Assembly (NCBI RefSeq): GCF_009914755.1
Contig: NC_060941.1
DNA: 64,000 nucleotides
Origin: the human T2T-CHM13v2.0 reference genome, Homo sapiens
Reading direction: 5' to 3' (one strand)
Shown here: in pieces, positions 32,031 through 33,118 of the stretch
Numbering within the stretch: position 1 is the first letter of the stretch
How the letters are laid out: each line of letters starts with the position of its first letter
Position numbers and translations under genes: made by a program
The notes under the pieces: generated by a model
The model's database searches: none
What the model saw: only the letters and a program-made list of their open reading frames with translations
Told to the model about the DNA's origin: nothing

Positions 32031-32159
32031 ACTCATTTGGACCATATTTTTTCTAGTAGAAAATTTATATTTATAATATATATTTTAAAGTCTTTACTAA
32101 ACCCAACATTTGGGCCTTCTTGGTATCTATTTCTATTAAAGATTTTTTTCTTGCGTATG

Positions 32160-32312
32160 TGTAGGGTCCAGCCCCACAGGGTTGGTGGGTTTCTCCCTGT
32201 GTGTGGAGACGAGAGAGTGTAGAAATAAAGACACAAGACAAAGAGATAAAAGAAAAGACAGCTGGGCCCGGGGGGCCACTACCAGTCCGACCCTGTGGGG
32301 CTGGACCCTACA
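32160..32312 (-). mobile_element. MER11 (HERV-K11/HML-8) LTR 3'-end remnant with inverted duplicate terminus (26-bp TIR-like)
   Basis: 32160-32284 matches the reverse complement of the MER11 3' end as I recall it; 32287-32312 is a 25/26 reverse complement of 32160-32185; flanks GTATG / CTATG. Confidence 0.85.
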
Positions 32313-32645
32313 CTATGGATCAGAGTTTTCTATTTTTATTCATGTTTAGTAATTTTTGTTGTATCCTGGACATTATGGATGATATGGCATAAATATTCTG
32401 GGTTATGTTATCTTCCTCTGAAGAGTGTTCAGTTTTGTTCCAGCAAATTGTTCAGTTTCTGGCTGATGACCTTGAACTTTTAGAGATTTGGTTTTATGCT
32501 TTGTTGGTGGAGGAGGAATTCTGTGGTGTTCTCTAATCTCCTCTAACTTCATAGTACTAAAATTTCAAAAATTCCCAGTGAATCTGGTTGAGGATTGTTT
32601 TTAGACTTTATTAGAATAGGTCTAGTGTAGTCCTTACTCAAGGAC

Positions 32646-32857: not shown

Positions 32858-33118
32858 GTTGTTGTTTTTTTTTTAGACGGAGTCTGGCTCAATCTCAGCC
32901 TAATGCAACCTCTGCCTCCCAAATTCAAGCAATACTCCTGCCTCAGCCTTCCAAGTAGCTGGAACTACAGGTTATGCACCACCACGCCCGATTAAGTTTT
33001 GGATTTTTAGTAGAGATGGGGTTTCACCATGTTGGTCAGGCTGGTCTCAAACTCCTGACCTCAAGTGGTCCACTTGCCATGGGCTCCCAATTACAGGCAT
33101 GAGCCACCATGCCTGGCT
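32858..33118 (-). mobile_element. AluS with two small internal deletions
   Basis: Alu dimer lacking ~28 nt after GGAGTCT and ~10 nt after CTCCCAA; 15-bp TSD GACATG(A/G)TCCTTA(C/T)T at 32843-32857 and 33119-33133. Confidence 0.92.

What the first reader, a model, noticed from the sequence alone, without database searches (positions are those of the whole stretch)
32160..32312. 153-bp ERVK (MER11) mini-element with the same U5 end on both sides: a MITE-like retroviral relic
Seen: the element starts TGTAGGGTCCAGCCCCACAGGGTTGG and ends CCGACCCTGTGGGGCTGGACCCTACA. These are 26-bp inverted arms whose single mismatch looks like CpG decay in the left arm. About 125 bp of MER11 3' end is followed by GT and then the inverted terminus. 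The flanks GTATG / CTATG resemble a 5-bp TSD, and the host L1M appears colinear across the insert. Known: MER11 LTRs are about 1 kb, have distinct U3 and U5 ends, and share only a few bp of inverted repeat. Inference: either integrase joined two U5 ends (two cDNAs, or a fold-back cDNA) and the palindromic centre collapsed, or a template switch at the TGT...ACA termini of a solo LTR deleted most of it and copied the opposite end. With two integrase-competent CA ends it could belong to an undescribed non-autonomous family, but one copy cannot show that.
Basis: partly seen in the sequence, partly recalled or inferred. Interest (0 to 1): 0.8.

Follow-up and report, generated by a model that had tools for sequence, protein, structure and literature searches.

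The report
Retroviral insert with two U5 ends
A single 153-base relic of an ancient HERV-K-type retrovirus carries the same viral end on both sides and a clean 5-base target duplication, so the viral integrase most likely inserted a broken, rearranged DNA copy; it is a one-off fossil, not a mobile family.

Summary
Window 32160-32312 has 26-nt inverted arms with one CpG-type mismatch. Bases 1-125 match the terminal 125 nt (U5 end) of a roughly 1,008-bp LTR family. Next come GT and an inverted copy of the last 26 nt. Paralogues of the host repeat show that the two flanks overlap by exactly 5 bp, so the 5-bp duplication is genuine.

- **Family name.** The LTR is not MER11. LTRs of proviruses published as HML-8 (MER11A/B/C) give no BLAST match. 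The family instead flanks the betaretrovirus-like provirus at the ERVK13-1 position (16p13.3). That points to LTR13/LTR13A (HERVK13, HML-4), a name I inferred and did not align to Dfam.
- **Mobile family.** The junction is unique in the genome and only the window covers all 153 bp.

Best explanation (about 0.6): integrase inserted, in one concerted reaction, DNA carrying two U5 ends. A mirror case supports this. On chr12, two inverted LTRs of the same family (98% identical) have both outer ends as U3 ends, flanked by a perfect 6-bp duplication. The main rival (about 0.2) is later rearrangement of an ordinary solo LTR. Orthologous primate loci would decide, and I could not examine them.

The parts
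32155..32159 (.). Left copy of the 5-bp target-site duplication (GTATG; paralogues read CTATG or GTATG here)
   Evidence: The left-flank alignment ends at the same 5 paralogue bases where the right-flank alignment begins (L040, L045, L051, L052, L058, L043, L060).
32160..32284 (-). Last 125 nt (U5 end) of a roughly 1,008-bp ERVK-type LTR, LTR sense on the minus strand; the terminus ...CCCTACA lies at 32160
   Evidence: 39 scored copies match 1-123/126 at 93-95%; homology among copies starts sharply at base 1 and runs about 1 kb rightwards in full copies; mean identity to 29 copies is 93.8%, against 93.1% among the copies themselves.
32160..32185 (+). Left inverted arm (26 nt), the native U5 terminus; carries TTGG where most copies have TCGG
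32272..32287 (+). Junction zone GGGGCCACTACCAGTC inside a U5 inverted repeat. It is not found forward in any of 29 copies. Its reverse complement is the distal arm of that repeat in 3 of 29 copies (a 13-14-mer core in 6 of 29)
   Evidence: Ambiguous: either A>G plus GT filler, or a strand switch at the inverted repeat.
32285..32286 (.). GT between the colinear LTR part and the inverted arm (filler, or part of the switched arm)
32287..32312 (+). Right arm: an inverted extra copy of the last 26 nt of the LTR, ending in ...CCCTACA flush with the TSD, where a solo LTR would have its U3 end (...GCCGCCCACA)
   Evidence: None of 29 other loci has such a second arm within 1.5 kb, and the true U3 end of the family is different.
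32313..32317 (.). Right copy of the 5-bp target-site duplication (CTATG)
32066..32159 (.).
   Evidence: 3 paralogues at 77-84%..
32313..32513 (.). Right flank: continuation of the same old repeat
   Evidence: 193 candidates, 40 scored, 69-77% identity over about 190 nt..

Best explanation
This is a one-off aberrant integrant of an ERVK (betaretrovirus-like) virus of the LTR13/HERVK13 (HML-4) type. The viral integrase inserted, in one concerted reaction with the family's usual 5-6-bp stagger, DNA that carried a U5 attachment end on both sides instead of one U3 and one U5 end.

Shown:
- The insert consists only of U5-end sequence.
- Both ends are the exact viral CA terminus.
- They abut a genuine 5-bp duplication of a colinear host site.
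- The insert is single-copy.

Inferred:
- Two U5-terminal cDNA pieces, 125 bp and 26 bp as they survive, came from two cDNAs or from a broken cDNA.
- They were synapsed by integrase and their inner ends were joined by host end-joining. The join left GT and occurred either before integration or as repair of the gap afterwards.
- A less favoured variant is snap-back copying at the U5 inverted repeat, followed by loss of most of one palindrome half.

The insert has no coding capacity and no sign of later mobility.
For: Anatomy. The terminus is sharp in 29 other copies. Full copies are 979-1,022 bp in 27 of 28 loci and end TGTAGGG...GCCGCCCACA in window orientation, so the right arm is not a U3 end.

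TSD: 7 of 18 paralogues give flank alignments that overlap by exactly 5 bp; L051 and L052 look like duplicates, so 6 are independent. The family makes perfect 6-bp TSDs in 13 of 28 loci and perfect 5-bp TSDs in 6 of 28.

Virus type: the LTR family flanks a provirus with Gag_p10, dUTPase plus RVP, RVT_1, RNase_H, rve and HERV-K_env_2 and a CCCTCT TSD.

Mirror precedent on chr12 (L078):
- Two full LTRs of this family lie inverted and are 98.15% identical.
- Both outer ends are U3 termini.
- A perfect 6-bp TSD, ATTTGA, sits in an Alu tail.
- The inner U5 end keeps the TC that lies between U5 and the primer-binding site in two proviruses of the family. It is fused to gag about 2.7 kb from the primer-binding site. 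This looks like end-joining of cDNA pieces before a same-end integration.

Literature (PMC5041404, Discussion read): rearranged viral DNA, with viral segments appended in either orientation, arises during faulty integration.
Against: - One locus in one genome; no orthologous sites could be examined.
- A 153-bp DNA is short to loop both ends into one intasome, so extra steps must be assumed (two separate pieces, or a longer precursor later deleted).
- One TSD copy differs at 1 of 5 positions.
- The U5 inverted repeat folds no better than shuffles (z 0.26). A 127-nt minus-strand DNA does not fold to prime on itself, so nothing supports a structure-driven snap-back.
- The chr12 case involves U3 ends, not U5 ends.
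- The survey for further cases was insensitive (exact words only) and found none like this one.
Confidence: 0.6

Rival explanations
1. An ordinary solo LTR or provirus integrated here with a 5-bp TSD. A later break or replication error removed about 880 bp. A 3' end left near the U3 terminus (TGT/TGTGGG) then primed by microhomology on the U5 terminus (TGTAGGG), copied 26 nt, and was rejoined at position 125.
For: The LTR termini share TGT-GGG / CCC-ACA. The inverted match extends 1 nt into the flank (GTGT/ACAC, 27 nt), which gives 4 nt of possible priming homology. The GT filler and a junction inside an inverted repeat are typical of template-switch repair.
Against: The degraded end would have to lie within the last 3-6 nt of a 1-kb LTR, so that the new arm ends exactly at the viral terminus beside an intact TSD. 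The chr12 element cannot be made by a single inversion, which shows that same-end integrants do occur in this family.
Confidence: 0.22
2. One-ended integration: integrase joined only one U5 end. Host polymerases and recombination then appended viral sequence in inverted orientation and joined the other side.
For: PMC5041404 (Discussion read) describes truncated viral ends extended by copying either strand of viral DNA and then joined by host machinery.
Against: That paper reports such events with deletions, duplications or inversions of the host flank. Here the second side ends exactly at CA, the host is colinear, and the duplication is the canonical 5 bp. Copying past the U5 terminus would have added the inverted left flank, and the right flank does not read that way.
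Confidence: 0.08
3. A member of an undescribed non-autonomous, MITE-like family mobilised by ERVK integrase.
For: It has terminal inverted repeats ending in CA, a TSD and small size.
Against: The 20-nt junction has 1 exact genomic match, which is the window itself. The only 2-mismatch hit is within chance expectation (27 hits for the reversed control). Only the window covers 1-153. No other plus-then-minus arm pair within 3 kb was seen among 73 of 73 T-variant hits, 100 of 113 A-variant hits, and the first 100 of 232 15-mer hits. The insert has no primer-binding site, promoter or packaging region for an RNA cycle.
Confidence: 0.02
4. Assembly artefact, or two unrelated LTR fragments that happen to abut.
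For: Very short solitary U5-end fragments do exist: a 33-nt piece on chr8.
Against: The flanks overlap by exactly the TSD length in paralogues. Both arms end at the exact viral terminus. Reads could not be checked.
Confidence: 0.03

Closest known systems
Solo LTR of the LTR13/LTR13A (HERVK13, HML-4) group
   Same: The sequence of the last 125 nt is the same, as are the CA terminus, the 5-6-bp TSD and the age class. Identity to the copies equals their identity to each other.
   Different: It has no U3 or R, being 153 bp instead of about 1,008 bp. The end that should be U3 is an inverted second U5 terminus. It cannot arise by LTR-LTR recombination.
   Same: Both are ERVK-class LTRs of about 1 kb or more. 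They share a loosely similar U5 layout, visible by eye.
   Different: There is no BLAST similarity between this LTR family and the LTRs of five proviruses matching published HML-8 loci. The proviral proteins are only about 40-59% identical.
Aberrant proviruses from faulty integration (ASLV and HIV-1 work summarised in PMC5041404)
   Same: Viral DNA is truncated and rearranged, and viral segments are appended in either orientation.
   Different: In that work one end is joined by host enzymes with host deletions or duplications. Here both ends look integrase-made, with a canonical TSD, and the event is fixed in a germ line.
In-vitro concerted integration with two like ends (recalled from the integrase literature; no paper seen here)
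   Same: Integrase synapses two identical attachment ends and makes the normal staggered cut.
   Different: That is a test-tube reaction with designed donors. This would be a natural, fixed product.
chr12 inverted-LTR element of the same family (T2T chr12:56,464,235-56,469,393; L078)
   Same: It belongs to the same LTR family, has like ends on both sides, and has a canonical TSD.
   Different: Its outer ends are U3, not U5. It keeps two full LTRs plus 3.1 kb of leader and gag.
MITEs of DNA transposons
   Same: Both are short, with terminal inverted repeats and a TSD.
   Different: This insert is a single copy, has no cognate transposase cycle, and its arms are retroviral attachment ends.

Membership tests
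ERVK (class II, betaretrovirus-like) LTR | TG...CA termini and a 5-6-bp target-site duplication | tested here: met
   of 28 loci, 13 have perfect 6-bp and 6 have perfect 5-bp TSDs. The termini read TGTGGG...CCCTACA in LTR sense.
ERVK (class II, betaretrovirus-like) LTR | The LTR flanks proviruses with betaretroviral gene content (Gag_p10, dUTPase in pro) | tested here: met
   on the chr16 provirus bounded by L024 and L025 with a CCCTCT TSD.
ERVK (class II, betaretrovirus-like) LTR | Lysine-tRNA primer-binding site next to U5 | tested here: inconclusive
   TGGCGCTC(T/C)GACGTGGGGC follows CCCTACA-TC. Its likeness to the Lys primer-binding site is recalled and was not compared with a tRNA here.
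MER11A/B/C (HML-8 LTRs) | Sequence similarity to LTRs of proviruses published as HML-8 with MER11A, B or C LTRs | tested here: not met
   located proviruses matching Table 1 of PMC10194239 by position and strand: 1p33, 1p13.3 and 9p21.1 (MER11A), 6q14.1 (MER11B) and 17q11.2 (MER11C). Their LTRs match each other at 76-85% but give no hit to this family at E<=1e-3. The mini-element gives only 21-29-nt chance matches.
LTR13/LTR13A (HERVK13, HML-4) | It is the LTR of HERVK13-type proviruses | tested here: met
   The chr16:2.68 Mb provirus lies where ERVK13-1 is listed, in a 16p13.3 interval (PMC6418362, passage). Its gag finds only about 13 related loci. That fits the roughly 10-12 HML4 copies (PMC4724089, table passage) and not the 78 HML8 proviruses. 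Repbase pairs HML4/HERVK13I with LTR13 and LTR13A (PMC5753468, passage). The link from gene name to group is by naming convention, which I recalled.
LTR13/LTR13A (HERVK13, HML-4) | Alignment to the Dfam/Repbase LTR13 consensus | not testable with these tools
Solo LTR | A complete LTR with a U3 end on one side and a U5 end on the other | tested here: not met
   Only the last 125 nt are present. The other end is an inverted U5 terminus, not GCCGCCCACA.
Mobile non-autonomous (MITE-like) family | Several copies sharing the junction, each with its own TSD | tested here: not met
   the junction is unique and no second close outward-facing arm pair was listed.
Integrase-made (concerted) integrant | Both viral ends stop exactly at CA and abut a direct duplication of family-typical length in an otherwise colinear host site | tested here: met

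The most novel reading that the evidence does not exclude
HML-4-type integrase paired like ends in vivo more than once, leaving a small class of TSD-flanked 'same-end' integrants. The class includes this U5/U5 mini-insert and the chr12 U3/U3 inverted-LTR element. Such fossils would record that a pre-integration complex could hold two cDNA ends of the same kind, from two cDNAs or from broken and re-ligated cDNA. They could be mined across ERV families to measure how often integration went wrong in the germ line.
Probability: 0.3. Interest if true: 0.65.

Novelty: new variant of a known kind. Interest (0 to 1): 0.45.

Why it matters
Faulty retroviral integration is known from cell-culture work with mutant or drug-inhibited integrase. 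Natural, fixed products are rarely recognised, because repeat annotation reports them as small LTR fragments. A clean U5/U5 insert and a U3/U3 counterpart in one family would show that integrase can use two like ends in vivo. They would also give a sequence signature (like ends plus a canonical TSD) that can be searched for in any genome. For this locus itself nothing functional is indicated. It is an intronic relic with no Rfam match, and the correction of its family name matters only for annotation.

Tried and rejected
- **Whole-genome file:** not available.
- **Gapped patterns for arm pairs:** a genome-wide gapped pattern was not accepted. I used plain words instead. These need both arms intact and list at most 100 hits, so the negative result is weak.
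- **Wider survey:** I did not pursue it.
- **Folding:** the U5 inverted repeat as RNA has z 0.26. The 127-nt minus-strand DNA has z 0.59, and its best fold does not pair the 3' end with bases 25-29. This gives no support for structure-driven self-priming. The whole element folds strongly (z -6.8), but only because of its arms.
- **Rfam:** nothing on the element. The weak mir-1268 and SRP matches at 32872-32994 lie below gathering score, within the stretch 32900-33075 that NCBI masks as repeat; I take them to be an Alu, unnamed by any tool.
- **HML-7 (MER11D):** rejected as the family. The published LTR length is 897 bp and the loci differ (PMC8156875, passages).
- **chr4:77.01 Mb as HML-8 locus 4q13.3:** rejected. 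Other chr4 loci give an offset of about 3.4 Mb, not 3.06 Mb.
- **chr8 pair of arms (L077):** not a mirror case. It is a 33-nt solitary fragment near an intact solo LTR.
- **Literature searches** for like-end integrants found nothing relevant: 'two U5 ends' (0 papers), U5-U5/U3-U3 (2 unrelated papers) and 'inverted LTR' with provirus and TSD (1 paper, not read).

Full report
**1. The observation**

The sequence is as described.
- TGTAGGGTCCAGCCCCACAGGGTTGG lies at 32160-32185, and its inverted copy lies at 32287-32312.
- The only mismatch is TTGG against TCGG.
- No other site in the 64-kb window matches within 3 mismatches, and 0 of 100 shuffles gave two matches.
- The window's genome could be searched, though not downloaded.
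- With the 153 bp as query there were 583 first-look candidates, of which 40 were scored. The 39 non-self matches cover query 1-123/126 at 93-95%. Only the window covers 1-153.
- In the 29 other fetched loci the right arm matches only as the reverse complement of the same single terminus. None has a second inverted copy within 1.5 kb.

**2. What the 125 bp are**

- Homology among copies begins exactly at base 1, with unrelated flanks to the left.
- It runs about 1 kb to the right. In 27 of 28 loci with both ends found, the repeat is 979-1,022 bp. L013 has an internal deletion.
- In window orientation the repeat reads TGTAGGG...GCCGCCCACA. In LTR sense that is TGTGGGCGG...CCCTACA.
- An AATAAA lies about 175 nt from the CCCTACA end (read). 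The window's plus strand is therefore the complement of the LTR, and bases 1-125 are the last 125 nt, most of U5.
- The true U3 end shares only TGT-GGG with the arm, so the right arm is an extra inverted U5 terminus.
- The 125 nt are as similar to the 29 copies (mean 93.8%) as those copies are to each other (mean 93.1%). By that measure the insert is no older or younger than the other copies.

**3. The family is ERVK, but not MER11**

Evidence that it is ERVK:
- Two copies, L024 and L025, are the LTRs of a provirus on chr16:2,680,468-2,690,743, flanked by CCCTCT.
- Its frames hit Gag_p10, Gag_p24, zf-CCHC_5, dUTPase plus RVP, RVT_1, RVT_thumb, RNase_H, Integrase_Zn, rve, IN_DBD_C, HERV-K_env_2, HERV-K_REC and GP41. 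That is a betaretrovirus-like set.

Evidence that it is not MER11 (HML-8):
- The chr16 gag region finds only about 13 related loci.
- A gag query from a different provirus, on chr17:28.63 Mb, finds 70 candidates (40 scored). Their places and strands track Table 1 of the published HML-8 survey (PMC10194239; abstract and sections 3.1 and 3.4 read). Examples are 3p12.3, 6q14.1, 3q22.1, 1p33, 5p13.1, 9p21.1, 11q13.2, 1p13.3, 10q24.32, 22q11.21, 2p14 and 12q21.31.
- I fetched the 5' LTR regions of loci labelled MER11A (1p33, 1p13.3, 9p21.1) and MER11B (6q14.1), together with the 17q11.2 MER11C provirus.
- These LTRs match each other at 76-85%. They give no BLAST hit to the present family at E<=1e-3.
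- The mini-element finds only 21-29-nt matches in them.
- The two kinds of provirus share only about 40-59% protein identity.

Evidence for LTR13/LTR13A:
- The chr16 provirus lies where ERVK13-1 is listed, between PDPK1 and KCTD5 (PMC6418362, one passage).
- HML4 is given as HERVK13I/LTR13 with about 10 copies (PMC4724089, table passage).
- Repbase lists HML4 with LTR13 and LTR13A, and HML8 with MER11A-C (PMC5753468, passage).
- The family is therefore most likely LTR13/LTR13A. The name is inferred, because no repeat library was available. The link from the gene symbol to the group is recalled.

**4. The target-site duplication is real**

- The right flank has many old paralogues (193 candidates, 40 scored, 69-77% identity). 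The left flank has few.
- I aligned the last 70 nt of the left flank and the first 70 nt of the right flank separately to 18 paralogues.
- In 7 of them (L040, L045, L051, L052, L058, L043, L060) both alignments reach the junction and share exactly the same 5 paralogue bases. These read CTATG five times, GTCTG once and GTATG once. L051 and L052 look like duplicates of each other.
- L034 is consistent with this, apart from a 1-nt shift.
- The other 10 gave no left-flank alignment reaching the junction.
- The host site was therefore ...CTTGA-(C/G)TATG-GATC..., and 5 bp were duplicated.
- The family itself makes perfect 6-bp duplications in 13 of 28 loci and perfect 5-bp duplications in 6 of 28.

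**5. Not a family**

- The junction 20-mer occurs once exactly, in the window itself.
- The single 2-mismatch hit is within chance, since the reversed control gave 27 hits.
- Exact arm words were listed in three searches:
  - a 15-mer with 232 hits, of which the first 100 were listed;
  - the T-variant 16-mer with 73 hits, all listed;
  - the A-variant 23-mer with 113 hits, of which 100 were listed.
- The only plus-then-minus pair within 3 kb is the window's own.
- This survey needs both arms intact and is therefore insensitive. A wider fetch of loci was not possible.

**6. A mirror case found while surveying**

The element lies on chr12 (L078).
- Two full LTRs of this family lie inverted and are 98.15% identical. 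Unrelated full-length copies are typically 88-94% identical, and the chr16 LTR pair is 94.2% identical.
- Their U5 ends face inward. Both outer ends are U3 termini.
- The outer ends are flanked by a perfect ATTTGA duplication inside an Alu tail. The left flank already contains the first GA of the Alu body, and the right flank then repeats it.
- Between the LTRs lie 3.1 kb that are colinear with the primer-binding site, leader and gag of the chr16 provirus.
- The inverted LTR's U5 end reads CCCTACA-TC and is fused to gag about 2.7 kb from the primer-binding site.
- TC is the dinucleotide between U5 and the primer-binding site in the chr16 and chr12 proviruses. That is what an unprocessed linear cDNA end would carry.
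- A single inversion of a normal provirus cannot give this arrangement.
- It reads as cDNA pieces joined end to end and then integrated through two U3 ends.

**7. Mechanism for the window's element**

- Both ends stop exactly at the viral CA, and the host is colinear with a canonical duplication. Both joins therefore look integrase-made.
- The simplest account is an intasome holding two U5 ends, with the inner ends (125 and 26 bp as they survive) joined by host end-joining. GT would be the filler.
- The joining may have followed integration, which avoids bending a 153-bp DNA.
- The junction can also be read another way. GGGGCCACTACCAGTC (element 113-128) is absent in forward orientation from all 29 copies. 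It equals the reverse complement of the distal arm of a U5 inverted repeat in 3 of 29 copies, and a 13-14-mer core matches in 6 of 29.
- That second reading would fit a snap-back at this repeat, followed by loss of about 110 bp. It needs one extra G in a G run, so it is no more economical than 'A>G plus GT'.
- Folding gives it no support.
- Self-priming of strong-stop DNA is known for HIV-1. I saw this only in a search listing (PMC6088434).

**8. Rivals**

- **Later template-switch repair of a normal solo LTR.** This is possible, since 4 nt of terminal homology are available (GTGT/ACAC). It requires the broken end to sit within the last few bases of a 1-kb LTR.
- **One-ended integration with host-mediated joining** (PMC5041404, passages and Discussion read). 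This predicts host deletions, duplications or an inverted flank, and none is seen.
- **A mobile family.** This is refuted at the sensitivity reached here.

**9. What is left open**

- No orthologous primate loci, raw reads or repeat library could be consulted.
- Supplementary tables of the HML-8 and HML-7 papers (lists of solitary LTRs) were not opened.
- Searches for prior descriptions of like-end integrants found none. Much of the older integrase literature is outside the searched library.

**10. Verdict**

This is a real, single-copy aberrant ERVK integrant, most likely of LTR13 type. Its best reading is a two-U5-end integration. It is interesting to retrovirologists as a natural fossil, especially alongside the chr12 counterpart. 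It is not a new mobile element.

Noticed in passing
L078 1735-6893 (T2T chr12:56,464,235-56,469,393): Two inverted full LTRs of the same family are 98.15% identical. Both outer ends are U3 termini, flanked by a perfect 6-bp TSD (ATTTGA) in an Alu tail. The inner U5 end keeps TC and is fused to gag. This looks like an integrant with two U3 ends.
   Followed up: partly
L077 3173-3205 (T2T chr8:144,388,673-144,388,705): A solitary 33-nt U5-terminal fragment of the family sits directly after an Alu poly-A tail. It lies 984 bp from, and inverted relative to, an intact solo LTR (L077 4189-5194) that sits in a G-rich minisatellite. How so short a terminal piece arose is unexplained.
   Followed up: partly
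L078 4296-4990; also chr8:146,235,248-146,236,081: A stretch of gag (query 851-1109 of the chr16 provirus) is tandemly amplified in the chr12 and chr8 proviruses of this group.
   Followed up: no
L068-L069 (T2T chr17:28,625,001-28,645,000): The HML-8 provirus on the minus strand is followed by a second betaretrovirus-like pol-env stretch on the plus strand (L069 4206-8631). That stretch is only 40-50% identical to the chr16 provirus proteins. An isolated Gag_p10-like hit also lies at L068 1350-1619 on the plus strand.
   Followed up: no
(genome-wide lists): Copies of this LTR family cluster in gene-rich chromosome ends. For example, 10 of 73 T-variant hits lie in chr8:143.8-146.3 Mb, and many A-variant hits lie on chr19, chr16p and distal chr9q.
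   Followed up: no
window 32872-32994: Weak Rfam matches to mir-1268 (37.9 bits, gathering 83) and SRP RNA (19.1 bits, gathering 70) lie on the minus strand, within the stretch NCBI masks as repeat (32900-33075). I take this to be an Alu. It sits between the last exon of LOC112268206 and the first exon of ASIC2-AS1.
   Followed up: no
L038, L039, L041 and L051, L052: Paralogues of the host repeat on chr1 (three places) and on chr16 and chr1 give identical alignments. They probably lie in segmental duplications and should not be counted as independent.
   Followed up: no
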